Virus record (IMG/VR): IMGVR_UViG_3300042894_007211 | Origin: an uncultured virus (IMG/VR IMGVR_UViG_3300042894_007211) | Taxonomy: Duplodnaviria; Heunggongvirae; Uroviricota; Caudoviricetes | Strand: one strand, 5' to 3' | DNA length: 58,080 bases | Shown here: in pieces, positions 4,525 through 48,694 of the stretch | Position numbering within the stretch: position 1 is the stretch's first letter | Layout: each line of letters starts with the position of its first letter | The notes under the pieces: model-generated | Seen by the model: the letters and a program-made list of their open reading frames with translations, nothing else | Database searches by the model: none | Told to the model about the DNA's origin: nothing | Position numbers and translations under genes: made by a program

Positions 4525-5730
4525 TTATCTAAACAAGTTTATTAGTTTATTCCACAATCTCTTTAGAATTGATATTAAACTAAATCTGTATTTTTTTACA
4601 TCACTTTTAGGACTTCCGGGTAAACTCCACTTAGTATAAACTTCTTCTCTTGTTGCCACCGCATACTTATTAGTAGATTGATTATAACAATCGTTTTGAA
4701 ACAACCAATCCGATAAAATCTTTGGAGCTTTATTTCCATCATTATCTGTTAATATCATATAATGAATGTGATTTCCAATATAGTGTCTATTACCATCTTG
4801 CGACTCATCAAATTCTAAGTATCCCCAAATAGAAGAATAATTGGTCATGTCTCTACTACCAACTTCCATTATAAATTGTAAAAATTCTTTTGAAGTTCTA
4901 CCATTTTCATCTGTTCCTATCATATAGTAAGGTGGAAATATAGTCTCTGGTCCTCCAACAAATTTCTGACACCAGAAATCATCATCAGTATGTGGATTAT
5001 ATTGCGAATAATCAAAATCAAAATGTCTTTGGCCATCATTTCTTGTATAGTAATCTTTACACCAATAAGATGGATAAGTTTTAACTCGCCATTTTACTGG
5101 AAGTAATTTTGAAACAACTATAGATTTACATCTTTGAGAAAGATAAAGTTGAAAATCATCATAATCAGGCGTTTCTTCATCCGGAAAGAAATCTAAAGAT
5201 TCCGCCATATCAGACATTGTTATATCTCCTTTAAGACCTAAATCAGAATAATCTTGGCAATGAAACACTTCTTGCCAATGTCCTTCTGGATCAACCACCA
5301 TCTGGTCAATTTTCTTTTTGGCTGCATCAAATATAGCAAGCATTCCTTCTCTAATCTCATTAGCTTTTGATTGTATTTCATCACCTGGTTGAGATTGTTC
5401 AATTAGTTTAGTAATAACACCTGATGCAATTTTCCCAATAATCATAGAAATATAAGCGGCCGGTGTACCACCTGGCCAAAACGCAGAAATGCCTTCGAAT
5501 ATTTTTGAGGCAAACATTCCTAAAATTTGAGCTGTTTGGTCTTTAACAGCATGAACCCCAACATTATTGATAGCATCTTGAAGGTCAATTTGTGCTTGTA
5601 TTCTTAAAGAATAAATTAATTTTGAAAGTGTTCTTAGATTGATATAAGTAACTTGAACGTGTTTATCATCATAAACTCTGATTCCCATTTCATTTACTGT
5701 GTAATGAAAGGATTGTGGAAAATAAGGCAT
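4525..5730 (-). CDS. Hypothetical protein (likely start MPYFPQ)
   Basis: Long ORF; GATATATA element precedes ATG 5730. Confidence 0.7.
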   Translation of the reverse strand: MPYFPQSFHYTVNEMGIRVYDDKHVQVTYINLRTLSKLIYSLRIQAQIDLQDAINNVGVHAVKDQTAQILGMFASKIFEGISAFWPGGTPAAYISMIIGKIASGVITKLIEQSQPGDEIQSKANEIREGMLAIFDAAKKKIDQMVVDPEGHWQEVFHCQDYSDLGLKGDITMSDMAESLDFFPDEETPDYDDFQLYLSQRCKSIVVSKLLPVKWRVKTYPSYWCKDYYTRNDGQRHFDFDYSQYNPHTDDDFWCQKFVGGPETIFPPYYMIGTDENGRTSKEFLQFIMEVGSRDMTNYSSIWGYLEFDESQDGNRHYIGNHIHYMILTDNDGNKAPKILSDWLFQNDCYNQSTNKYAVATREEVYTKWSLPGSPKSDVKKYRFSLISILKRLWNKLINLFR

Positions 5731-7102: not shown

Positions 7103-7744
7103 ATGGTAATTGATGAAATACTAAATAAAGAAACTGAACTTTGCCGTATTATGAAAAAGTGGGGTAGTGATAAAAGTACTTGGCATAACTACACCAGACT
7201 TTATTTTCACCTTTTTGATAAACTCAAAGAAAAAGGCGCAAATATCTTTGAACTCGGTCTTGGAACCACTAACTCTAATATCTCATCACACATGGGACCT
7301 TTCGGAAAACCCGGAGCTTCACTTAGGGCTTGGAAAGAATTCTTTGTAGATGCTAACATTTTCGGAGCAGATATTGATAACACTATTCTTTTCACAGAAC
7401 CACAAATCGAAACATTTTATTGTGACCAAACATCTCCACTTAAAATAAGTGAAATGTGGAATAATGAAAACTTAAAAGAAATCAACTTCGATGTAATCAT
7501 TGATGACGGCCTTCATGAATTCTCAGCCAATCTTTGTTTTTTTGAAAACTCTATACAAAAACTTAAGCAAGGTGGTTTTTATATCATCGAAGACTTAACA
7601 CCATTATCAGTAAGAATGTTCAATGAAATACTCACTGAACTTAAAGATAAATATCCTTATTTAGAAATTGAACTGGTAAAATTAAATTGGAACGGTAACC
7701 AAGGTGGTGATAACAATCTTTTAGTAATTAAAAGCAAACTTTAG
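7103..7744 (+). CDS. Class I SAM-dependent methyltransferase
   Basis: IFELGLG, GADID, FDVIIDDGLH, GGFYIIED motifs. Confidence 0.85.
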   Translation: MVIDEILNKETELCRIMKKWGSDKSTWHNYTRLYFHLFDKLKEKGANIFELGLGTTNSNISSHMGPFGKPGASLRAWKEFFVDANIFGADIDNTILFTEPQIETFYCDQTSPLKISEMWNNENLKEINFDVIIDDGLHEFSANLCFFENSIQKLKQGGFYIIEDLTPLSVRMFNEILTELKDKYPYLEIELVKLNWNGNQGGDNNLLVIKSKL

Positions 7745-9904: not shown

Positions 9905-10429
9905 TTAATATAAAGTAGACCTCTCACAAAAAGTTAACTGAACCTCTCCCAACTCCCTTTGATTATTAATCGCCAACTCTAAAACCTCTTTAGTAACAGG
10001 CCACTTATCTAATAAAAAACGATCAGGCGTATGGTGATATCCACATCTTAAACACTGAGTAAAACTAGTTAGATTATAGTTATCCTCTATATCATCACCC
10101 AAACAATTTGGACATCCTATATAATGCTGCCAACTATCATTTGAATACCAAGAAGCATCTAACAAAAGTTTTAACCCACAGTCTTCCATATAACCTAACA
10201 AATCAATTACACACCCATCTAAAGTAAACGGTGACTGAATATCTCCATTAAAATCAAAACCACCTAAATTAACAGAAACCCAATAAATATCTTTCTTATC
10301 TATAATCCACGTACCATCCGTAACATAAACACTAACCCCCTTATCAGAAATATCTAATAATAGATCCTCAATTATAGATTTACTCCATAACTTACTCTCA
10401 AATAAACGATATTTCTTTAACCTTTTCAT
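9905..10429 (-). CDS. CTS-like protein with CxxC pairs
   Basis: MKRLKKYRLFES start at ATGA overlap; CPNC, CLRC. Confidence 0.7.
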   Translation of the reverse strand: MKRLKKYRLFESKLWSKSIIEDLLLDISDKGVSVYVTDGTWIIDKKDIYWVSVNLGGFDFNGDIQSPFTLDGCVIDLLGYMEDCGLKLLLDASWYSNDSWQHYIGCPNCLGDDIEDNYNLTSFTQCLRCGYHHTPDRFLLDKWPVTKEVLELAINNQRELGEVQLTFCERSTLY

Positions 10430-10848
10430 ATCTTTAAAAACCACATTTCTACTCTAGTATTATATCTATTAGTACCACTGGATCTGGTAGTAACACGAGG
10501 TACATTTTCAGTATGAGAAGTTCCTTTATCCTTAAACCACTCAAACCCCTCTTCAGATAAAAAATCAATAATAGGATACATTACATCCTTCACTTGATTC
10601 CAAGTAAAAGAATTTGCTATCAATTGATTAACTTTATCTAAATCGTCGATTATGTCTAAAGTATGCCTATTTACAATTGCTGGCTTATAAACAGCAACTC
10701 TTATAAACTCCCTACCATCCTGACGTCTAATAACAGCATTATGTGAAAAATCATTGAAGTCTAACTCCCTTAACATATCCTTTACAATAGATAATAACTC
10801 ATCAGTATCAACACTCTCAAATAAACGATATGTCTTTAACCTTTTCAT
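10426..10848 (-). CDS. CTS-like protein, paralog of 10845-11264
   Basis: MKRLKTYRLFES; shares LSxVKDMLxELDF and VEMWF. Confidence 0.75.
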   Translation of the reverse strand: MKRLKTYRLFESVDTDELLSIVKDMLRELDFNDFSHNAVIRRQDGREFIRVAVYKPAIVNRHTLDIIDDLDKVNQLIANSFTWNQVKDVMYPIIDFLSEEGFEWFKDKGTSHTENVPRVTTRSSGTNRYNTRVEMWFLKI

Positions 10849-11264
10849 CTTATAAACCACATTTCTACCTTAGACTTAATATTATCCAATCGAGCACTTC
10901 CAGATGTAGAGATAATAGGTATACCTTCATATGATAAAGAACCCTGGTCTTTACGGTATAAAAAACCCTCTTCTTTTAAAAACTCAATAACAGGCTCCAT
11001 TACCGATTTAATATCATCCCAAGTATAAGAAGCCTTATAACCATCACCAATAGCATCCCCCCTTTTAATTGCCTTTTTAGATAAATTAATAACAATAATC
11101 TCGGGGTTTTCACTAATAGAAGCATCCATCTTCGTATAAGGAACTAATTCACACCTACTCTCAATATCTAAAAAGTCTAACTCCAATAACATATCCTTTA
11201 CAGTAGATAAGATATAATTAACATCTTCTGAACTCTCAAATAAACGAAATGATTTAATTCTCAT
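10845..11264 (-). CDS. CTS-like protein, paralog of 10426-10848
   Basis: MRIKSFRLFES; TAATATATA at 11270-11278. Confidence 0.75.
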   Translation of the reverse strand: MRIKSFRLFESSEDVNYILSTVKDMLLELDFLDIESRCELVPYTKMDASISENPEIIVINLSKKAIKRGDAIGDGYKASYTWDDIKSVMEPVIEFLKEEGFLYRKDQGSLSYEGIPIISTSGSARLDNIKSKVEMWFIR

Positions 11265-11280
11265 AAGATTATATATTAAA

Positions 11281-11499
11281 TTATAATCCCAATTCCTTTA
11301 ACTTAATCTCTCTAATCTCTTCTTTACTTAAAGCTACATCAAACCAAATCTCACCATTTAACTCCTGACGTTGCTTTAAATAACACCTCTTACATACCCT
11401 TACATTTAAAGTAATGTGATTTCCAGAACCCAATTTTCCAATATCAATCTTCTCAGTATAGAACTTCCAGTTATGTCTTATCTTACATAATATTTTCAT
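11281..11499 (-). CDS. Small C-tagged protein with Cys/His motif
   Basis: Likely start MKILCKIRH (ATGA overlap); ends IREIKLKELGL. Confidence 0.7.
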   Translation of the reverse strand: MKILCKIRHNWKFYTEKIDIGKLGSGNHITLNVRVCKRCYLKQRQELNGEIWFDVALSKEEIREIKLKELGL

Positions 11500-11783
11500 A
11501 GTATCAAATTTAATTTCATATCTCTTTCTATCTGAATAGTGATATCCCTCAAATAACCTTTGGTAATACATCCAGCAATTGACCATCTGGAACTTGCTGT
11601 CTTAGTCCAATCTAAAGTAAAGATAGCATCATACTCAGAATTATGAATGACTACTTTTGCTCCCGTTGAGTACATATTAATAGGGATAATATCTCCTATC
11701 TTAAACGGATGATGGTAATTGACATCAGTATCTATGTCTATACTTAAATTATCTTTGAGGACTTCTAAATAATAACGTGTCAT
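11496..11783 (-). CDS. Small C-tagged protein
   Basis: Ends IERDMKLNLIL. Confidence 0.7.
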   Translation of the reverse strand: MTRYYLEVLKDNLSIDIDTDVNYHHPFKIGDIIPINMYSTGAKVVIHNSEYDAIFTLDWTKTASSRWSIAGCITKGYLRDITIQIERDMKLNLIL

Positions 11784-11884
11784 TGGAGTATCTGATTTAT
11801 CTTAATATCTCTAAGTAGACAATTACTATGGAGTAACCACTGGGTAAAGTCTTCTTTGAAACAATTTTCGAGTTGATTTGTCAT
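11780..11884 (-). CDS. 34-aa C-tagged microprotein (not in ORF track)
   Basis: MTNQLENCFKEDFTQWLLHSNCLLRDIKINQILQ; ATGA-coupled to next gene. Confidence 0.6.
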   Translation of the reverse strand: MTNQLENCFKEDFTQWLLHSNCLLRDIKINQILQ

Positions 11885-11934
11885 GTATAGATTATATTTA
11901 GGTAGTGAAACAAAGTTTGGCGAGATTTTAATTA

Positions 11935-12192
11935 TACAGAAAAATGAACGGATTTCTGTATATTATAGTGTATTAGATTATACAGAAAAATGGTCAATTT
12001 TTTGTATCTAATATTTAGACTTTTGGGTCGGAAAGAGTGTGTAGAAATCCGGTTTTATTTCTGTAATCGGTTGGCAAAATGGTCGGATTTAATACAAAAA
12101 AATGTATGAAATTCTGTATAGGGTAAAAGTAAGATTACAGAAATCTGAACGGAACTTTGTATATCATACAGAAATATGGTTGTTTTTCTGTA
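11935..12192. repeat. Cluster of six 26-bp quasi-palindromes TACA(G/A)AAA..N6..TTT(C/T)TGTA
   Basis: Copies at 11935, 11981, 12040 (degenerate), 12093, 12136, 12167. Confidence 0.9.
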
Positions 12193-12331
12193 GAAATATG
12201 TGTTAGTTCTATGTCGATTTTAAAAATCTTATTTGAAACTCTTTTTTCGTATGTAAAAGTATATACGAGCAACTCATCGTTTAAACTCTCTCTCACTGAC
12301 AACTAATCGTCACATCTTTACTACAAATTTT

Positions 12332-12970
12332 ATGTCAGAATTAATCGAACCAAATCCACTTCTTATAGAGTATTATATCAAGGCTCAGCAGCTCACCGCC
12401 GAACTTTGCTTAGACGTTAGTGACCATAAATCTTTAGGTGAGTGGCATTATATTGAATCAAATATTGAGTATAATATTTTGTTATTACAGAGGCTTTCAG
12501 AGCTTGGCTTACTTCCGCTATCACCGATTAAGATATGTGATTGTGGTGTAGGTTTAGCAACTATTATGTATGATTTTTACTTACAGTCTAAAGAGTTCAA
12601 TTACAAGTTTGAGTTTTTCGGAGTTGAGAGGTATCAGCCTTATATAGATGCTTTTGAAGGGGAATTAAGAACTTACTGGAATAATGATTTGCAGATGATT
12701 TCAGACGATTTGATGGATCATAACTATAGTCGGTATAACTTTATATGGATATTCACTCCTTATAGTCAGAGTGACAAGTTAATGAAGTTTTTTGAAAAGG
12801 TTATATTGGAGATGCCACCCGGAGGTATTGTATTTGGATTAGACCATTATCGTATAATGACGTATGGTGGAGATGAGTTGAAGAAGGAGTTTATGAAATT
12901 AGAGGCTCATAAGGTGGATGAATTGTGGTGTTTCAAAAAGGTTCAAAGGGGCAGTGTCTACAACCACTGA
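12332..12970 (+). CDS. SAM-dependent methyltransferase-like protein
   Basis: ICDCGVGLA motif I, FGVE, IFTPY, MPPGG. Confidence 0.7.
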   Translation: MSELIEPNPLLIEYYIKAQQLTAELCLDVSDHKSLGEWHYIESNIEYNILLLQRLSELGLLPLSPIKICDCGVGLATIMYDFYLQSKEFNYKFEFFGVERYQPYIDAFEGELRTYWNNDLQMISDDLMDHNYSRYNFIWIFTPYSQSDKLMKFFEKVILEMPPGGIVFGLDHYRIMTYGGDELKKEFMKLEAHKVDELWCFKKVQRGSVYNH

Positions 12971-13040
12971 CGCAGCACTTGCCACGTTTAATATGATATC
13001 TTTCGGCAAGGACAATAGCCTCCTTTTCTAGTTTCTTCAT
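12933..13040 (-). CDS. DUF5522-like Cys-rich microprotein or remnant
   Basis: MKKLEKEAIVLAERYHIKRGKCCVSGCRHCPFEPF. Confidence 0.5.
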   Translation of the reverse strand: MKKLEKEAIVLAERYHIKRGKCCVSGCRHCPFEPF

Positions 13041-13158
13041 CTAAAACATAATCCCAATAATAGTGAGCTTTACCACAGTTTGAACAATCACCAACTTGAT
13101 AATCTTCACTTATGAAGAATTTATGATTACATTTCGGACATTCTAATTCGTGTTCCAT
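12988..13158 (-). CDS. 56-aa zinc-ribbon protein
   Basis: MEHELECPKC...CSNC. Confidence 0.55.
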   Translation of the reverse strand: MEHELECPKCNHKFFISEDYQVGDCSNCGKAHYYWDYVLDEETRKGGYCPCRKISY

Positions 13159-13181
13159 AATAACTGTTTATATTTGTGAAC

Positions 13182-13587
13182 GTTATAAGTAATAAAACAA
13201 AAATTATGAGTTTATATGATTTTGATACCAACTTTCAATAATCAACTCTTTTTCTCTTGTAGGTTTAACACCACCAGTTGACCAATCTGTCCACTCAAAA
13301 CTACCATCCTCGTTTTCAATTCTTCTAAATAAACACCAATATGGTTTACCATCTTTCGTAGACCAACCTTTCACTCGTATATCAAAATATGTTTTAACTT
13401 CAGTTTTTTCAAATTTAATTTCGACACCTTCAGGTAGTTTTGTTTTGTTAGATTTTGGTATTAAATAATAATCAACACCATCTAATGTAATCGTTCTTTT
13501 TTCCATAATTTTATTTTTTAATTTGTATAATTTTTGTTTTACATACTTATAACAAAGTGTAAAAAACATTAAAACGATTTTTTACAC
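13182..13587. mobile_element. Gene-cassette-like unit bounded by ~26-bp imperfect inverted repeats plus hairpin
   Basis: GTTATAAGTAATAAAACAAAAATTAT (13182) vs ATAATTTTTGTTTTACATACTTATAAC (ends 13553); GTGTAAAAAA..TTTTTTACAC hairpin follows. Confidence 0.5.
13204..13506 (-). CDS. Hypothetical protein (likely start MEKRTIT)
   Basis: ORF inside the inverted repeats. Confidence 0.65.
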   Translation of the reverse strand: MEKRTITLDGVDYYLIPKSNKTKLPEGVEIKFEKTEVKTYFDIRVKGWSTKDGKPYWCLFRRIENEDGSFEWTDWSTGGVKPTREKELIIESWYQNHINS

Positions 13588-13613
13588 TCATTCCCATTCG
13601 ACCTTCCTTTAGA

Positions 13614-13680
13614 TACAGAAAAACGTGCAGAATTTTGTATATTAATTTAATAAATACAAAAAAATGAACGGATTTCTGTA
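13614..13680. repeat. Two 26-bp quasi-palindromes
   Basis: TACAGAAAAACGTGCAGAATTTTGTA and TACAAAAAAATGAACGGATTTCTGTA. Confidence 0.9.
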
Positions 13681-13801
13681 GTAGTTAAACTTCTAATAAT
13701 TCATTTGATAATCTCAAATACATCTAATAGAGTAATTTCATTATAATATTTTTTTGTAAAGATAAGGAACTTTATTATAATGGTCAAATTATATATAAGT
13801 T

Positions 13802-14146
13802 ATGGATGTAGAAAAAGATTACATTTTTGTTTATGGTTTATTCAGGGACCAATCGAGGCCGCTGCTTGGAAAAGCTACATACTGTGGTAAATCGTTTATT
13901 TCAGGTAAGTTATATAAAGTAGATGAATTTTATCCTGGTTTAGTTCAGGGTAGTGTTGGAAAGGTGTGGGGAGATGTTTATCTTTTTGATACTAGTTTAC
14001 TCGAAGAGATGGATATCTATGAAGGAAGTGAATATAAGAGGGTTCGTGTTAGGACTGCTTCAGATATAGAGTGTTGGGTTTATGAGTATTGTCAGGATGT
14101 GTCTGGTTTTGTTGAGATAAAGTCAGGAGATTGGCATTTAAGGTAA
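13802..14146 (+). CDS. Gamma-glutamylcyclotransferase (AIG2-like)
   Basis: FVYG..., YPGL, VWGDVY, DIYEG, YKRV. Confidence 0.85.
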   Translation: MDVEKDYIFVYGLFRDQSRPLLGKATYCGKSFISGKLYKVDEFYPGLVQGSVGKVWGDVYLFDTSLLEEMDIYEGSEYKRVRVRTASDIECWVYEYCQDVSGFVEIKSGDWHLR

Positions 14147-14204
14147 ACCTTTGGGGTAGGTTGGAGTATACTCGCTCCCACCTGTTGTTGATGTTAGTAA
14201 CTTT

Positions 14205-14245
14205 ATTCTTACTACAAAGATATGGATTATTTTTAAATTGACAAA
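14205..14245 (-). promoter_or_regulatory. Full Bacteroidetes-type promoter (TTTG-19 nt-TATCTTTG) with no downstream ORF
   Basis: Closely matches the promoter at 17471-17511. Confidence 0.65.
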
Positions 14246-14264
14246 AAAAGTGCAGATTTTTGTA
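14239..14264. repeat. 26-bp quasi-palindrome
   Basis: TGACAAAAAAAGTGCAGATTTTTGTA. Confidence 0.75.
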
Positions 14265-14272
14265 TAAAAGTT

Positions 14273-14728
14273 ATGAAGATATTTTGTTATGGTTCTAATA
14301 TGAGTTCTGAAAGAATAACTGAGAGGTGTTCTTCTTCGCGTTTTATAGCAATAGCTAGTGTTAGGGGTTGGAAGTTACTATTTAATAAAAAGAGTAAAGA
14401 TGGTTCTGGTAAGGCTAATTTAGTTTGTACAGGTGATGGAAGTTTAGTATGGGGTGTTATATTTGATATATCAGAGGATCAGAAGCCGATATTGGATAAG
14501 TTTGAGGGTTTGGGTAAGGGATATGATGAATTGAAATTGCTAGTTATAAGTGATTTAGGTGAAGAGGTTGAGTGTATTAGTTATATAGCAACTGATGATA
14601 AGTATTTAGAAAAGAGTTTAAAGCCACATGAGTGGTATAAGGAGTGGTGTTTGGTGGGTGCTAGGGAGCATAATATACCTGGAGATTATATTTTAATGAT
14701 AGAGGGTGTGGGTGTTACAGAAAAATGA
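14273..14728 (+). CDS. Gamma-glutamylcyclotransferase family protein
   Basis: FCYGSNM, VWGV, LDKFEG motifs. Confidence 0.85.
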   Translation: MKIFCYGSNMSSERITERCSSSRFIAIASVRGWKLLFNKKSKDGSGKANLVCTGDGSLVWGVIFDISEDQKPILDKFEGLGKGYDELKLLVISDLGEEVECISYIATDDKYLEKSLKPHEWYKEWCLVGAREHNIPGDYILMIEGVGVTEK

Positions 14729-14782
14729 GCGAATTTCTGTACTATATAAAATAGGTTACAAAAATCTGCACGTTTTTTTGTA
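14716..14782. repeat. Two 26-bp quasi-palindromes
   Basis: Copies at 14716 and 14757. Confidence 0.9.
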
Positions 14783-14923
14783 TATATTTTGATTAATAGT
14801 CGAAACTATCATCTGGATATCTGACCTCATCTTCTATAAAGAATTCACCTTCATCATCTAAATCATCATCGCACATAGTCCGGTCGATTGGTTCTATTAC
14901 TTCAAATAGGTGGTTTTTTTTCA

Positions 14924-15448
14924 TTACTTTTTTAGGTGTCCCAGTTTTTTATAGAGGCAGATAATTTCTTCGATTGTTAGGTTATTCTTTTTACCGTTGA
15001 TATCGGATGTACAAGCAACTACGTTTCCTACAACATATCCCTTTTCGTTATCTAACCTATCAAAGGTTCTTTGATGAGGCCCATCTTCGGTGAATTGGTG
15101 ATTGGTATAGTAGCAAGTTTTATATTCAAGTAGTTTCTTAACATATTCGAATGTTAGGTTAAACTCAAGGTTTCTACTTTGTGCTGATGAATGTATATTG
15201 ACTAATTTTCTGGCTACTTCTAAGTCTGATATTGTCTTAGTTTCTTTTTTAGGTTCTTCTCCATTTTTACTTGACAAATCAGTTACGGTATCAAATATAT
15301 CTTTTGAAATTTTAAAATCTGGTAGGAGTTCTTGTTCAGGTTCTTTCTTAGCTTTTAGCTTTTTAATTGGTGTTGTTTCAATTGGTGTTGTTTCAATTGG
15401 TGTTTCTTCTCCGTTGGTATCTGTAATTTGAGTTTTTTTTCTTGTCAT
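14924..15448 (-). CDS. HNH-like domain protein
   Basis: CYYT...DRLDNEKGYVVGNVVAC...N; low-complexity N-terminus with ETTPI repeats. Confidence 0.6.
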   Translation of the reverse strand: MTRKKTQITDTNGEETPIETTPIETTPIKKLKAKKEPEQELLPDFKISKDIFDTVTDLSSKNGEEPKKETKTISDLEVARKLVNIHSSAQSRNLEFNLTFEYVKKLLEYKTCYYTNHQFTEDGPHQRTFDRLDNEKGYVVGNVVACTSDINGKKNNLTIEEIICLYKKLGHLKK

Positions 15449-15497
15449 TTAAAAGTTTTCTTTTATATATCTGGTTAATTTTTCTCCAGTCAAAAGT

Positions 15498-15716
15498 TTA
15501 ACGCAGCACATATTGGTGAATAGTAATAACTGGCTTTTGATTAAAGTAAGCTTTTTCACCTTCAATAGTTATTGATATCATACCTAAGTCTTCTTTTAGG
15601 CGATTTGCTTGTGTGTTAAGTTCTTTGATGGCGGATTCGTGTGTTTTAAAAAAACCAAAGTAGCTATCACAACCACCGGTTTTATCACAAACACCCCAAA
15701 CGAATTCTCTTTGCAT
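15498..15716 (-). CDS. Hypothetical protein
   Basis: 72-aa ORF in operon. Confidence 0.65.
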   Translation of the reverse strand: MQREFVWGVCDKTGGCDSYFGFFKTHESAIKELNTQANRLKEDLGMISITIEGEKAYFNQKPVITIHQYVLR

Positions 15717-15718
15717 AG

Positions 15719-15985
15719 TTAAAATATTCTTACTGACCAGATACCGCTCTTAATTTTGAGTGTATCATTTTTTTTATAGATTACGGGGTGGTCAAGTTCA
15801 AAACGAGACCTTCCAATACAATTAGCGAGGGTTTGACATCTGGCTTTAATATCAGCTTTCAGTTCTTGTGGAACATCATCTAAGATATAGATATTGAACC
15901 TCATCTTAGATTTAAGATCGAGTTTTGCCTGATAGATTTCGACTATCTCGCTAAATGTATCTTCGAGTAATTCTTGGGGTATCAT
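15719..15985 (-). CDS. Hypothetical protein
   Basis: 88-aa ORF in operon. Confidence 0.65.
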   Translation of the reverse strand: MIPQELLEDTFSEIVEIYQAKLDLKSKMRFNIYILDDVPQELKADIKARCQTLANCIGRSRFELDHPVIYKKNDTLKIKSGIWSVRIF

Positions 15986-21270: not shown

Positions 21271-21323
21271 AAAAAGTGTAACTTTCCTTGACTTTTGGCG
21301 TTTATATAGTATATTTATATCAT

Positions 21324-22166
21324 ATGAGAGCACTTAAAATAACCCAATCAATCACTACAAAAGAAACTGAATCATTTAACAAATATCTACGCGATGTTAG
21401 TGGTTTAGATATGATAAACTCCCAAACAGAAATCGAACTGGCTAAACAGATAAAAGCTGGTGATATTAAGGCACAAGATGAATTAGTAAAGGCTAATCTA
21501 CGTTTTGTTATATCAGTAGCAAAACAATATGTAGGTCGTGGTTTAGATATTGAAGACTTAGTATCAGAAGGTAACTTAGGTTTAATTAAAGCCGCACAAA
21601 AGTTTGATGAAACCAGAGGTATTAAATTTATCTCTTTTGCTGTATGGTGGATACGTCAATCTATTCTACAATCATTAGCTGATAATTCTCGACAAGTAAG
21701 ACTTCCCTTAAATCAAATAAACGCCTTAAATAAAATTAAATCAGCTGAAAATGATTTAGAGCAACAACTACAAAGAAAAGCTACTGCATCTGAACTATCT
21801 GAATACTTAGGCGTTACAGAAGATAAGGTTAATCTTTCTATTACCAGTAGTCAAAAGATATCTTCTATGGATACACCTATTGGTGATGATAGTGATTTTA
21901 CTTTAGCAGATACATTTCAATCTTCGGACTTTGCGGATACCGAAATTATACAATCTGATATTTTGCAAAAGATAAATACGGCCCTTAATAGCTTAACTGA
22001 AAGAGAAAGATTTATTATTATCAATCTATTTGGTATTGGAGTTAATGAAATGACTTTGGTAGAGATTTCAAATAAGTTAGACTTAACATCAGAAAGAGTT
22101 AGACAGATAAAAAATACGGCTATTAAGAAATTATCGAAGAGTGGTGTACTTTCTAGTTTAGTTTAA
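21324..22166 (+). CDS. rpoD: RNA polymerase sigma-70 factor, Bacteroidetes primary-sigma type
   Basis: MRALKITQSIT; ANLRFVISVAKQY; KFISFAVWWIRQSI; LTSERVRQIK; no region 1.1. Confidence 0.92.
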   Translation: MRALKITQSITTKETESFNKYLRDVSGLDMINSQTEIELAKQIKAGDIKAQDELVKANLRFVISVAKQYVGRGLDIEDLVSEGNLGLIKAAQKFDETRGIKFISFAVWWIRQSILQSLADNSRQVRLPLNQINALNKIKSAENDLEQQLQRKATASELSEYLGVTEDKVNLSITSSQKISSMDTPIGDDSDFTLADTFQSSDFADTEIIQSDILQKINTALNSLTERERFIIINLFGIGVNEMTLVEISNKLDLTSERVRQIKNTAIKKLSKSGVLSSLV

Positions 22167-48157: not shown

Positions 48158-48694
48158 TTATCTTGGAATTCCCCACATTTCATCTACTTCTATTCCAAAT
48201 TCAGAAAGTATATTTTCTAATTCAGCATGATTTACATCATTGTAATCAAGTATTAAGTGGTCATGAAAATCAACATTAAAATTAGCAGATACTCTTTGTT
48301 TTACTCCTGCTTCACTTTCATAAAAACAAAGATTAAAATTACCAGGCAATACAGAGTAGTGATGAACTTTACCCATATAAATCCAGTTTGTTTGGAAGTT
48401 TTTCTTTTCTGGATCTGGTTTACTATGAAACCAATCTGATTGAATATCACAATGAACCTCAACTCCAGGAAGCTCTGTATTAGAGGAACCCATTTTTCCA
48501 CCTAATCCAGTTGTATCAACTTTGTTTACAGTTTTAATAACAATGCCTTTATAAACCTGACTTATAGGAATTTGTTCAGTTGGTGGGGTAATTATACTTT
48601 TATCAAAAGCTTTTACAAGATCCATCATAGACTGATATCTTTCCGCTCTATTATCAGAAGTTATATTCTCATTAAATCTTTTTAGGTGTTTCAC
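48158..48694 (-). CDS. CTS-like protein
   Basis: MKHLKRFNE; TAATATATA at 48699-48707. Confidence 0.7.
   Translation of the reverse strand: MKHLKRFNENITSDNRAERYQSMMDLVKAFDKSIITPPTEQIPISQVYKGIVIKTVNKVDTTGLGGKMGSSNTELPGVEVHCDIQSDWFHSKPDPEKKNFQTNWIYMGKVHHYSVLPGNFNLCFYESEAGVKQRVSANFNVDFHDHLILDYNDVNHAELENILSEFGIEVDEMWGIPR

What the first reader, a model, noticed from the sequence alone, without database searches (positions are those of the whole stretch)
11935..14782. Eleven 26-bp 10+6+10 quasi-palindromes at a strand-skew switch: candidate replication origin
Seen: sites at 11935, 11981, 12040, 12093, 12136, 12167, 13614, 13655, 14239, 14716 and 14757. Arms approximate TACAGAAA(A/T)(A/C) around an asymmetric 6-bp core (TGAACG x3, TGAGCG, TGCACG, or reversed CGTGCA/AGTGCA). 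I noticed none elsewhere in the window. By eye the + strand is C-rich to the left (even in the + gene at 7103) and G-rich to the right (even in - genes at 15-17 kb), and the nearest operons diverge from here. Inference: a bidirectional origin with initiator or partition sites. The arm-core-arm geometry also resembles tyrosine-recombinase (dif/lox) sites, so inversion or resolution is an alternative.
Basis: partly seen in the sequence, partly recalled or inferred. Interest (0 to 1): 0.8.

Follow-up and report, generated by a model that had tools for sequence, protein, structure and literature searches.

The report
Phage operator-like palindromes bordering gene cassettes
The eleven 26-base palindromes are real and belong to a family-specific DNA element of huge freshwater phages, and they look like binding sites of a small phage regulator at the borders of swappable accessory genes, not a replication origin.

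Summary
All eleven sites exist (11 matches against 1.5 expected). They are the only such sites in the 58 kb window. The skew switch is local and follows gene direction.

The same element, TACAGAAA-N10-TTTCTGTA with a conserved G..C in the centre, recurs in lake metagenome contigs: 63 of 115 fetched loci hold two or more copies. It never clusters in 185,579 cellular genomes (0 of 15 hits).

The window is a piece of a huge phage. It is syntenic with a 436 kb record that encodes ribosomal protein bS21 and type-IX-secretion domains, so the host is probably Bacteroidota.

In most relatives the main cluster sits directly upstream of a 61-residue CopG-like ribbon-helix-helix gene. Two records found through that protein alone carry the cluster there and nowhere else. 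The central bases, and even the spacer length (10 or 11), vary together with the protein's DNA-reading strand.

Some sites overlap the -33 element of host-type promoters. Many sit exactly where homology between relatives breaks.

Best reading (0.5): these are operators of a phage regulator that also act as portable linkers for cassette shuffling, analogous to PeSLs. In two near-complete relatives the global skew extremes lie 36 to 105 kb from the cluster. The regulator gene itself is absent from this window.

The parts
11935..11960 (.). Site 1 of the six-site cluster. Perfect arms, core AATGAACGGA.
   Evidence: 0 mismatches. The left arm sits 16 nt from a leftward -7-like box.
11981..12006 (.). 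Site 2 of the cluster.
   Evidence: 1 mismatch.
12040..12065 (.). Site 3 of the cluster.
   Evidence: 2 mismatches. Its position is conserved in relatives' clusters.
12093..12118 (.). Site 4 of the cluster.
   Evidence: 2 mismatches. The 53/43/31 spacing of sites 3 to 6 is conserved in relatives.
12136..12161 (.). Site 5 of the cluster.
   Evidence: (3 mismatches).
12167..12192 (.). Site 6 of the cluster. Perfect arms, last site before the rightward gene.
   Evidence: 0 mismatches. A conserved TGTGTT..CTAT block follows it in 10 lineages.
13614..13639 (.). Site 7, first of a pair 41 bp apart in a divergent gap.
   Evidence: 2 mismatches.
13655..13680 (.). Site 8, second of the pair.
   Evidence: 1 mismatch.
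14239..14264 (.). Site 9. Decayed left arm. Ends 8 nt before the ATG of the second GGACT gene. Its left arm serves as the -33 position of an orphan leftward promoter.
14716..14741 (.). Site 10. Perfect arms. Supplies the last three codons (T-E-K) and the TGA stop of the gene 14273-14728.
14757..14782 (.). Site 11, second of a pair 41 bp apart in a convergent gap.
   Evidence: 2 mismatches.
11911..11918 (-). -7-like box (AAACTTTG on the minus strand), 16 nt beyond site 1. Inferred leftward promoter of the minus-strand operon, whose first ATG is at 11884.
   Evidence: The same arrangement is seen in L108. The box consensus comes from passages of PMC2483708 and PMC9723704.
12209..12217 (+). Conserved CTAT.. 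whose TA lies 17 nt after site 6, the register of a -7 box. Inferred weak rightward promoter.
   Evidence: 10 lineages; register.
14215..14226 (-). -7 box TCCATATCTTTG, 12 nt beyond site 9, reading leftward, antisense to the end of gene 13802-14146. No ORF follows.
13757..13768 (-). -7 box TCCTTATCTTTA without a site. A leftward transcript from here would run through sites 8 and 7.
   Evidence: The direction of the transcript is inferred.
11281..11586 (-). Small Cys/His protein (family F5 in my numbering). Conserved left neighbour of the cluster in several lineages.
   Evidence: No Pfam or NCBIfam hit.
12332..12970 (+). 212-residue protein that follows the cluster here, in the place of the regulator gene. 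Has a glycine-rich loop like SAM-methyltransferases (judged by eye only).
   Evidence: No Pfam, PHROG or NCBIfam hit. The structure model is too poor to use (pLDDT 54).
12933..13040 (-). 35-residue DUF5522 gene overlapping the end of the previous gene.
   Evidence: E 4.6e-13, 49.5 bits, cut-off 25.
12988..13158 (-). 56-residue zinc-ribbon protein.
   Evidence: sub-threshold zinc-ribbon hits.
13204..13569 (-). 121-residue ORF of unknown function.
13802..14146 (+). First GGACT (gamma-glutamyl cyclotransferase-like) gene.
   Evidence: PF06094, E 6.5e-19.
14273..14728 (+). Second GGACT gene. A cassette found in at least seven different neighbourhoods in relatives.
14924..15448 (-). HNH-endonuclease-like gene beside the last pair of sites.
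   Evidence: phrog_1400, phrog_3118.

Best explanation
The 26-bp palindromes are copies of a protein-binding element specific to one family of huge freshwater phages. The host is probably Bacteroidota. The consensus is A-TACAGAAAAA-TGnnCG-GATTTCTGTA-T, with 8-bp arms and a fixed 10-bp spacer.

Most likely they are operators of a small phage-encoded ribbon-helix-helix (CopG-like) regulator.

The six-site cluster is the control region between two divergent promoters. Its outermost arms lie where the host-type -33 element belongs. A bound protein would therefore shut the leftward operon (from site 1) and the rightward gene (from site 6). Single sites and pairs sit at the borders of small accessory-gene cassettes.

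The same 26 to 55 bp module is repeated between unrelated genes. It is therefore also the place where relatives have exchanged, duplicated or lost cassettes, as PeSL cassettes do in T4-type phages.

Shown:
- the existence, specificity and locality of the element;
- its intergenic position;
- the promoter register of a subset of sites;
- adjacency to the regulator gene in relatives;
- variation of the core together with the regulator type;
- breakpoints at the sites.

Inferred:
- that the regulator binds the sites;
- that binding represses;
- that recombination uses the sites.

The regulator gene is not in this window. I infer that a copy lies elsewhere in this phage's genome.
For: (1) SPECIFICITY.
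- The window has 11 sites against 1.5 expected.
- 63 of 115 metagenome loci hold 2 or more sites. 0 of 40 viral-contig chance hits and 0 of 15 cellular-genome hits hold a second site.
- The spacer length is fixed: N10 305, N11 24, every other length 4 or fewer apart from an artefact at N12.
- Information is confined to about 28 bp, and no flanking position exceeds 0.16 bit.

(2) DNA RATHER THAN RNA.
- At arm position 5/22 the pairs are G-C 89, A-T 52, G.T 44 and A.C 36 of 223.
- In tandem gene contexts, sense-strand G.U 13 against A.C 9. Site orientation is not tied to gene direction, 24 against 18.
- Hairpins are weak, -2.1 to -8.4 kcal/mol, and 3 of 11 do not form the arm hairpin.
- G12 and C15 are conserved (182 of 223) although they could only close a 2-nt loop.

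(3) INTERGENIC POSITION. 84 of 93 sites lie outside called ORFs, in loci that are 67 to 89% coding.

(4) REGULATOR.
- The main cluster is followed within 500 bp by a 61-residue protein in 12 distinct clusters.
- Its fold is ribbon-helix-helix. The AF2 model (pLDDT 82) has a strand-helix-helix order. The top Foldseek rows are Rv0298, ParG, CopG, NikR, omega and Arc, but with E of 0.08 to 1.4 only.
- Pfam RHH families score below threshold. 11 of 50 relatives carry PF10723.
- Homodimer model: score 0.50, best of 3 controls 0.00. That mark was reached by 20 of 30 proteins solved as pairs of one chain and by 1 of 23 solved as single chains. The runs agree in at least 96% of contacts, pLDDT is 70, and my own alignment was used. 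Contacts 21-21 and 23-19 form an antiparallel ribbon. Solved RHH dimers exist, so this pass may reflect likeness to them.

(5) TEST NOT BIASED BY THE MOTIF.
- Searching viral contigs with the protein alone gave 2 records. Both carry the cluster right upstream of the gene.
- Whole-record scans put 4 of 4 and 3 of 3 matches at that locus.
- At 2 mismatches the hits elsewhere equal the reversed-sequence control.

(6) CORE VARIES WITH THE REGULATOR'S STRAND RESIDUES.
- Type ..CGT..: TGAACG in 13 of 21, TGTGCG in 0.
- Type ..(C/I)VR..: TGTGCG in 13 of 15, TGAACG in 0.
- Types ..YIT.. and ..AVS..: 11-bp spacer with GCTACG.

(7) PROMOTER REGISTER.
- TAnnTTT(G/A) boxes peak at 17 to 19 nt from the site edge, 43 of 523 site-sides, against 5 or fewer at any other offset up to 28.
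- In the window this holds at sites 1 and 9.

(8) SHUFFLING.
- 88 of 138 site-bearing gaps hold a homology end, against 296 of 680 other gaps (odds ratio 2.3, p 1.5e-5).
- Homology of the 212-residue gene stops at the site edge in L117 and L116.
- Only the right half of a site remains at a cassette border in L085.
- A cassette-site-cassette tandem is found in L141.
Against: - The regulator gene is absent from this 58 kb window: tblastn E above 0.3, profile E of 0.42 or worse, and no RHH family among 92 small ORFs.
- At least three lineages lack the regulator beside the cluster: this window with L108 and L117, then L080, then L086.
- All fold evidence for the regulator is below the usual thresholds taken singly.
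- The match between core and regulator type rests on about four lineages, so it could be shared descent or homogenisation of repeats.
- Only about one site in six has a -7 box in register, and only 2 of 22 site-sides in the window do.
- 33 of 212 sites lie in convergent gaps, where neither a promoter nor an operator has an obvious use.
- The invariant arms together with a variable core are not what a single reading head would give. The arms may be read by something else.
- Binding was not tested.
Confidence: 0.5

Rival explanations
1. PeSL-like cassette without a dedicated protein. The palindrome acts as an RNA stem-loop (terminator or attenuator) joined to a host-type promoter, and its sequence is kept uniform only by recombination among copies.
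For: - Location in a hyperplastic region and at breakpoints.
- A subset carries a promoter box in register.
- The whole 55-bp site-plus-promoter module is repeated upstream of different genes within one genome.
- PeSLs are described as stem-loop plus promoter (PMC2839356 and PMC4122927: abstracts and passages).
Against: - Weak hairpins, 3 of 11 not formed.
- No excess of G.U over A.C on the sense strand, 13 against 9.
- No U-tract: flank positions carry 0.32 bit or less.
- Conserved G12/C15 and a fixed 10-nt 'loop'.
- 41 of 212 sites lie in divergent gaps, where nothing needs terminating.
Confidence: 0.12
2. Replication origin. The six-site cluster is an array of initiator-binding repeats from which replication starts in both directions.
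For: - 4 to 7 sites with a conserved layout in a divergent gap.
- Strictly local in 436 and 281 kb relatives.
- A local minimum of cumulative skew at 11664.
- The adjacent regulator's nearest Pfam family is a plasmid replication-control repressor.
Against: - The skew follows gene direction, and the minimum for the whole window is at 48678.
- In G001 the global minimum is at 316,122 and the maximum at 15,228, against the cluster at 421 to 422.6 kb. In G002 the extremes are at 5,585 and 203,600, against the cluster at 239.8 kb.
- No replication protein lies beside the cluster.
- Five of the eleven sites are dispersed at gene borders.
- Some sites are in register with promoters.
Confidence: 0.1
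3. Dedicated site-specific recombination sites (arm-spacer-arm, dif/lox-like) that move or invert gene cassettes, acted on by a phage or host tyrosine recombinase.
For: - The geometry fits.
- Central bases are uniform within a genome but differ between lineages, including a concerted 10-to-11 change.
- Breakpoints fall at or inside the sites, and one tandem cassette has a single site at the joint.
- A Xer-like recombinase gene lies 8 nt from a 27-bp site in G002, and a copy with three stops lies likewise in L051.
Against: - The recombinase is absent from G001, which is 95% complete.
- It is absent from the window and from all other loci by tblastn.
- No serine recombinase was found.
- None of 78 family representatives carries a recombinase domain.
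- Of 80 loci with relatives of that recombinase, only its own record holds a site.
- Junctions are not precise. The same gene ends before, at or inside the site in different relatives.
- No strand-change joint was listed in the laid contigs. Contigs show presence only.
Confidence: 0.1
4. Centromere-like or packaging-related array. The RHH protein acts like ParG or omega, and the sites serve partition or another nucleoprotein assembly, not transcription.
For: - ParG and omega are among the structural neighbours.
- The sites are clustered and dispersed but strictly local.
- IMG/VR classes both relatives as proviruses.
Against: - No ParA-type ATPase was recognised beside the cluster in the window or in L174 and L175.
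- Some sites are in register with promoters.
- The sites mark cassette borders.
Confidence: 0.06

Closest known systems
PeSL (promoter-early stem-loop) mobile regulatory cassettes of T4-type phages (PMC2839356, PMC4122927: abstracts and passages read)
   Same: Short repeated intergenic modules concentrated in hyperplastic regions. They lie next to small ORFan genes, are joined to a host-type promoter, and sit at indel and replacement breakpoints between related phages.
   Different: - PeSL stem-loops are G/C-rich terminators of loose sequence, followed by a -35/-10 promoter.
- Here the palindrome is A/T-rich and a poor hairpin, with a fixed 10-bp spacer and conserved central bases.
- It overlaps the -33 position instead of preceding the promoter.
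- It occurs in convergent and divergent gaps alike.
- It forms a 4 to 7 copy cluster upstream of an RHH gene.
- The host promoter type is -33/-7 (Bacteroidota).
Ribbon-helix-helix repressor and operator systems (CopG of rolling-circle plasmids, Arc and Mnt of phage P22; biology recalled, structures seen as Foldseek rows)
   Same: A small dimeric RHH protein encoded next to inverted-repeat operators that overlap the upstream promoter element, with several dimers per operator.
   Different: - No member reaches a Pfam cut-off.
- The site is longer (26 bp, three conserved blocks one helical turn apart).
- Copies are spread over 3 to 8 kb at cassette borders.
- The gene is missing from this window.
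Omega / ParG type RHH global regulators and centromere binders (recalled; both appear)
   Same: An RHH protein with arrays of repeated sites at several promoters of one replicon.
   Different: Their sites are short (4 to 7 bp) contiguous repeats with a partner ATPase. Here the sites are isolated 26-bp palindromes and no ATPase partner was seen.
Iteron-type origins such as lambda ori (recalled)
   Same: A cluster of 4 to 6 dyad-symmetric repeats in about 260 bp.
   Different: No initiator gene, no skew extreme in complete relatives, and extra copies at gene borders.
dif / Xer-type recombination sites (recalled geometry; NCBIfam names)
   Same: Arm-spacer-arm layout of 26 to 27 bp, with a lineage-specific centre.
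   Different: Many copies per genome, imprecise junctions, and no recombinase that travels with the sites (1 of 80 loci).

Membership tests
PeSL-type mobile regulatory cassette | Repeated intergenic motif concentrated in a hyperplastic region of small variable genes | tested here: met
   All 11 sites lie within 2.85 kb. Gene content between conserved flanks differs between the window and L117.
PeSL-type mobile regulatory cassette | Composite of a stable stem-loop terminator and an early promoter | tested here: not met
   Hairpins are -2.1 to -8.4 kcal/mol and 3 of 11 are not formed. A promoter box is in register at only 43 of 523 site-sides, and at 2 of 22 in the window.
PeSL-type mobile regulatory cassette | Lies at insertion, deletion or replacement breakpoints between related phages | tested here: met
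   odds ratio 2.3, p 1.5e-5; junctions at the site edge, a half-site remnant, a tandem cassette.
PeSL-type mobile regulatory cassette | Mini-circles formed by exchange between flanking copies | not testable with these tools
   Only assembled contigs of DNA runs were available.
RHH repressor with operator | A protein with the ribbon-helix-helix fold that forms a dimer through an antiparallel ribbon | tested here: inconclusive
   In relatives: model pLDDT 82. RHH proteins fill the top Foldseek rows, but E is 0.08 or more. Pfam hits are below the cut-off. Dimer score 0.50 against control 0.00. In the window: no such gene.
RHH repressor with operator | Gene adjacent to its own repeated operators (autoregulation layout) | tested here: inconclusive
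   Met in 12 distinct clusters and in 2 of 2 records found through the protein. Not met in the window's own lineage, L080 or L086.
RHH repressor with operator | Operator overlaps a promoter element | tested here: met
   The arm lies at the -33 position, 17 to 19 nt upstream of TAnnTTT(G/A), for a subset. This holds for window sites 1 and 9.
RHH repressor with operator | Specific binding of the protein to the site | not testable with these tools
   The only indirect evidence is that the core varies with the strand residues.
Iteron-type replication origin | Cluster of repeated initiator sites | tested here: met
   Six sites in 258 bp.
Iteron-type replication origin | Global extreme of cumulative GC skew at the site | tested here: not met
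   In the window the minimum is local only. In G001 and G002 the extremes lie 36 to 105 kb from the cluster.
Iteron-type replication origin | Initiator or replication genes at or beside the repeats | tested here: not met
   None in Pfam or PHROG scans of the neighbours.
Tyrosine-recombinase core site (dif/lox type) | Two inverted arms around a short asymmetric spacer | tested here: met
Tyrosine-recombinase core site (dif/lox type) | A cognate recombinase that co-occurs with the sites | tested here: not met
   The window's ORFs of 80 aa or more after 20.9 kb were scanned against PHROGs only.
Tyrosine-recombinase core site (dif/lox type) | Precise rearranged forms with the joint in the spacer | tested here: inconclusive
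   One half-site remnant and one tandem cassette were found. Other junctions are imprecise.

The most novel reading that the evidence does not exclude
The sites are the recombination sites of a self-contained gene-cassette exchange system of huge phages. The RHH protein marks 26- or 27-bp palindromes whose central spacer is specific to each lineage. Accessory genes, with or without their own promoter, then move, duplicate and invert as site-flanked cassettes. This would be an integron-like platform without a dedicated integrase, run by the phage's general recombination machinery or by a host Xer enzyme.
Probability: 0.12. Interest if true: 0.8.

Novelty: new variant of a known kind. Interest (0 to 1): 0.45.

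Why it matters
Huge phages of freshwater Bacteroidota are known almost only from metagenomes, and how they control and exchange their many small accessory genes is unknown.

This work gives three things:
- a precise, testable cis element, with about 30 informative positions and a fixed spacer;
- a candidate 61-residue binding protein, with natural specificity variants (four core types, two spacer lengths);
- a map of cassette borders.

If the pairing holds, it would be a compact orthogonal repressor and operator set for Bacteroidota. It would also extend the PeSL idea (regulatory repeats as linkers for modular evolution) to a different promoter architecture and a different phage lineage.

The element is also a handy marker for this phage family in lake metagenomes.

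I found no description of the element. A full-text search for both arm octamers gave 115 papers, and the 8 listed are unrelated. A search on RHH, huge or jumbo phage, Bacteroidetes and intergenic repeat gave 14 papers, and none of the 8 listed deals with it. I read search listings only, apart from PMC9723584, of which I read passages. Supplements were not read.

Tried and rejected
SEARCHES THAT WERE CLOSED OR EMPTY
- No whole genome is held for the window, and metagenome records cannot be searched whole.
- An arm-only scan of viral contigs gave 40 single hits, at chance level.
- L041, a distant relative found through the 228-residue protein, has neither the motif nor another palindrome family.
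- The 212-residue protein has no relative in viral contigs or named phages. The regulator has none in named phages.
- Rfam gave 0 families and ARAGORN 0 tRNAs in the window.

SIGNALS THAT WERE NOT ENRICHED
- -35/-10-type promoters and terminators are not enriched at 11 to 16.5 kb (25 found, 25.0 expected; 1 found, 2.0 expected).
- The half-site-like GGTCGGATTT between cluster sites is not significant in the window (1 match, 1.53 expected), although it recurs in relatives' clusters.
- The model of the 212-residue protein was too poor for a fold search (pLDDT 54).

HOST-FACTOR OR dif-MIMIC IDEA
- There were 15 single hits in 185,579 genomes. The three identical Sphingobacterium hits are part of one conserved promoter-proximal repeat region. 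I did not pursue this further.

RECOMBINASE LINK
- The Xer-like recombinase as partner of the sites is rejected: 1 of 80 loci holds a site.

SEQUENCING RUNS
- No RNA holder is listed.
- All 24 listed runs are DNA runs of lake or fresh water kept as contigs.
- The four laid runs gave only short contigs. No strand-change joint was listed. Parts without cover and the low-support joint 11967 to 15874 (side 21) carry no weight.

Full report
WHAT IS THERE

The region 11935-14782 holds eleven 26-bp quasi-palindromes at the coordinates given. A search for TACAGAAA-N10-TTTCTGTA with up to three arm mismatches returns 11 matches. Shuffles give 1.50 +/- 1.18, and 0 of 100 shuffles reach 11.

All six exact TACAGAAA octamers of the 58 kb window lie in the sites. 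Six sites form a 258-bp cluster in the divergent gap between a minus-strand operon and the gene 12332-12970. Two sites form a pair in the next divergent gap. One ends 8 nt before the ATG at 14273. One supplies the last codons and the stop of that gene. One more follows 41 bp later, in a convergent gap.

SKEW

The coding strand is G-rich in 33 of 39 genes. The local minimum of cumulative G-C is at 11664, where gene direction changes. The minimum for the whole window is at 48678.

The gene at 7103 has skew -0.019. The minus-strand genes at 15-17 kb have -0.065 to +0.089. The minus-strand genes at 12988-13569, to the right of the cluster, have -0.27 and -0.33.

WHAT THE WINDOW IS

No genome is held for it. 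Most ORFs have no family. Recognisable ones include a prohead protease, virion proteins, an RpoD-like sigma factor, an acyl carrier protein, two GGACT enzymes and an HNH nuclease.

58 window ORFs have tblastn hits in a 436 kb viral record, G001, which is 95% complete. The hits lie mostly at 374-433 kb and in conserved order. That record encodes ribosomal protein bS21 and a protein with SprB and CHU_C type-IX-secretion domains. Another relative has a Por_Secre_tail protein. Promoter boxes of the TAnnTTTG type precede many genes. That consensus, with TTTG at -33, is the Bacteroidetes sigma-A promoter according to passages of PMC2483708 and PMC9723704. bS21-encoding huge phages of freshwater Bacteroidetes are described in PMC9723584 (abstract and passages).

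Twenty-four lake or freshwater DNA runs hold the stretch or part of it. I therefore take the window to be part of a huge lake phage of Bacteroidota. Host and genome size are inferences.

THE ELEMENT ELSEWHERE

A degenerate pattern found 119 stretches in metagenome contigs. 63 of the 115 loci fetched hold two or more sites, and 17 hold five or more.

Controls:
- 40 arm-only hits in viral contigs are all singletons.
- 15 hits in one genome each of 185,579 species are all singletons.

The element is therefore specific to this phage family and is not the motif of a host regulon.

From 207 unique contexts, 158 of which could be oriented, the information is confined to about 28 bp: A-TACAGAAAAA-TGnnCG-GATTTCTGTA-T. 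No flank position exceeds 0.16 bit. The spacer between the 8-bp arms is 10 in 305 cases and 11 in 24.

The centre nearly always pairs a ..TG half with a ..CG half (169 of 223). G12 and C15 are kept in 182 of 223.

DNA OR RNA

The variable arm position gives G-C 89, A-T 52, G.T 44 and A.C 36. In tandem gene contexts, the sense strand shows G.U 13 against A.C 9. Site orientation does not follow gene direction, 24 against 18. Hairpins are weak, and three of the eleven do not fold arm to arm. G12 and C15 could only close a two-base loop. This favours recognition of duplex DNA by a symmetric protein.

POSITION

84 of 93 sites in 24 sources (the window and 23 loci) lie outside called ORFs, although ORFs cover 67 to 89% of those sources. 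Eight of the nine exceptions are spurious ORFs across clusters.

Of 212 unique sites, 41 lie in divergent gaps, 69 in tandem gaps and 33 in convergent gaps. A TAnnTTT(G/A) box starts 17 to 19 nt after the site edge at 43 of 523 site-sides, against 5 or fewer at other offsets up to 28. In those cases the arm lies where the -33 TTTG belongs. In the window this holds for the left side of site 1 (box at 11911-11918, first ATG at 11884) and the left side of site 9 (box at 14215-14226, no gene behind it).

After the last cluster site, a block TGTGTT....CTAT is conserved in ten lineages. Its TA is in the same register.

THE CANDIDATE BINDING PROTEIN

In gene-order maps the main cluster is followed by a protein of about 61 residues in 12 distinct clusters. 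Evidence on its fold:
- Five members give only sub-threshold Pfam hits, all to ribbon-helix-helix families.
- A profile search of PDB sequences gives a viral RHH regulator at E 0.03.
- The AF2 model (pLDDT 82) has an extended segment followed by two helices.
- Foldseek gives no match at E of 0.001 or better, but nearly all its top rows are RHH proteins.
- 11 of 50 database relatives carry PF10723.
- The homodimer model scores 0.50 against a best control of 0.00. That mark was reached by 20 of 30 proteins solved as pairs of one chain and by 1 of 23 solved as single chains. The runs agree in at least 96% of contacts, pLDDT is 70, and my own alignment was used. The strands pair antiparallel at residues 18-24. 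Solved RHH dimers exist, so the pass may be by likeness to them.

A test not biased by the motif: searching viral contigs with the protein profile returned two records. Both carry the site cluster immediately upstream of the gene. Whole-record scans place 4 of 4 and 3 of 3 matches at that locus, with reversed-pattern controls of 1 and 0. At two mismatches, 7 of 27 N10 hits in G001 fall in 1.3 kb, and the other 20 match the control of 17.

The central bases of the dispersed sites follow the type of the protein's strand:
- ..CGT.. goes with TGAACG in 13 of 21 and TGTGCG in 0.
- ..(C/I)VR.. goes with TGTGCG in 13 of 15 and TGAACG in 0.
- ..MAT.. and ..QAT.. go with TGCAC(G/A) in 7 of 12.
- ..YIT.. 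and ..AVS.. go with an 11-bp spacer holding GCTACG.

Only about four lineages stand behind this, so shared descent is not excluded.

AGAINST THIS READING

The window itself has no such gene. Here the cluster is followed by a 212-residue protein of unknown function. Two other lineages also lack the gene beside the cluster. G001 has a second, weaker copy at 10.6 kb. By synteny this would fall outside the window.

CASSETTE BORDERS

The window and its closest relative L117 share the flanks and the cluster, but 3.2 kb here is replaced by 6.6 kb there. The second GGACT gene, together with its flanking sites, occurs next to different genes in at least seven loci.

At base level:
- Homology of the 212-residue gene ends exactly at the outer edge of a site in L117 and L116, while the window has unrelated sequence there.
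- L085 keeps only the right half of the site in front of the GGACT gene.
- L141 has gene-site-gene in tandem.
- L053 and L055 lack the 5' site.

Homology ends fall in 88 of 138 site-bearing gaps and in 296 of 680 other gaps (odds ratio 2.3, p 1.5e-5). 167 of 914 ends lie within 35 bp of a site, although only 5.6% of the sequence does. The location of the sites in a variable region confounds this.

This is the behaviour described for PeSLs (PMC2839356, PMC4122927). There, exchange is thought to need only short homology.

RECOMBINASES

None of 78 family representatives has a recombinase domain.

A 266-residue Xer-like tyrosine recombinase lies in G002, with a 27-bp site 8 nt after its stop. L051 has a copy with three in-frame stops in the same place. 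G001 has no such gene. Neither record has a serine recombinase. Of 80 viral loci with relatives of the enzyme, at 52 to 100% identity, only its own record has a site within 2.5 kb. I take it to be cargo.

ORIGIN TEST IN COMPLETE RELATIVES

- G001: cumulative skew minimum at 316,122, where gene direction also flips. Maximum at 15,228. Cluster at 421.2-422.6 kb.
- G002: minimum at 5,585, maximum at 203,600, cluster at 239.8 kb.

The cluster is at neither extreme in either record.

VERDICT

The origin reading is not supported. The best account is a family-specific operator of a phage RHH regulator that also marks, and probably mediates, cassette exchange.

The element is a new variant of known kinds (operator and regulator sets, PeSL-type linkers), in a little-known group of huge phages.

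Noticed in passing
window 21288-21315, and L066 17394-17460: A -35/-10-type promoter (TTGACT, 16 nt, TATATT) lies directly in front of the phage's RpoD-like sigma gene, whose ATG is at 21324. That promoter type is said not to work well in Bacteroidetes (PMC2483708 passage). It is conserved in L066, where a full 26-bp site abuts it. In the window only a decayed remnant of the site is left. This may be an autoregulated, phage-specific promoter class.
   Followed up: partly
window 14215-14226 (-): A complete site-plus-box promoter module points leftward into the 3' end of the first GGACT gene, and no ORF lies behind it. It is either an orphan left by cassette replacement or a source of antisense RNA.
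   Followed up: partly
many loci, e.g. L047 116-2466, L075 4951-6898; in the window only 11281-11586: 85 of 1179 called ORFs end in LG or LN plus I/L/V within their last residues (the pattern the script counted). They fall in more than 40 families that show no similarity to each other. In the listed examples the tail reads ...R-(D/E)-x-K-L-x-x-L-G-(I/L/V). It could be a shared C-terminal peptide or a DNA-level element at gene ends.
   Followed up: no
window 12933-13040 (-): A 35-residue DUF5522 gene (E 4.6e-13) overlaps the 3' end of the 212-residue gene. It would be missed at usual ORF length cut-offs.
   Followed up: no
window 9905-11586: Three tandem paralogues (my family F0) and the small Cys/His gene have very strong coding-strand G excess, 0.39 to 0.57. 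The two GGACT genes have 0.52 and 0.65. Together these genes produce most of the apparent skew switch.
   Followed up: partly
window 10988 / 14849: Contigs of two runs (X4, X9) join 10988 to 14849 with 14 other letters between. This may be a variant lacking the whole 3.9 kb block with all eleven sites, or a chance join of short matches (table 5c).
   Followed up: no
window 13113-13313 and 13515-13715: Contig depth is 5 to 10 times that of the neighbouring bins in three of the four laid runs (X4, X7, X9). There are many different continuations. In two of the runs (X7, X9) there are joints that skip 13214-13517. The flanks of the 121-residue ORF seem to be shared by many genomes while its body varies.
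   Followed up: no
L175 15844-16641 and L051 6032-6823: A Xer-like tyrosine recombinase sits at the far end of the site array in two lineages. The L051 copy has three in-frame stops. Relatives were found in 151 viral contigs (the best 80 kept), and the 79 kept besides its own record lack the site.
   Followed up: yes
G001 280-300 kb: One 20 kb bin of the 436 kb relative has 40% G+C, against 29 to 33% elsewhere. IMG/VR classes both relatives as proviruses.
   Followed up: no
L160, L163, L169 around 2001-2100: Three Sphingobacterium species share an identical 26-mer that fits the degenerate pattern. It is followed by three repeats of a similar 20-mer, directly upstream of a conserved gene. This is a separate, host-side repeated operator-like region.
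   Followed up: partly
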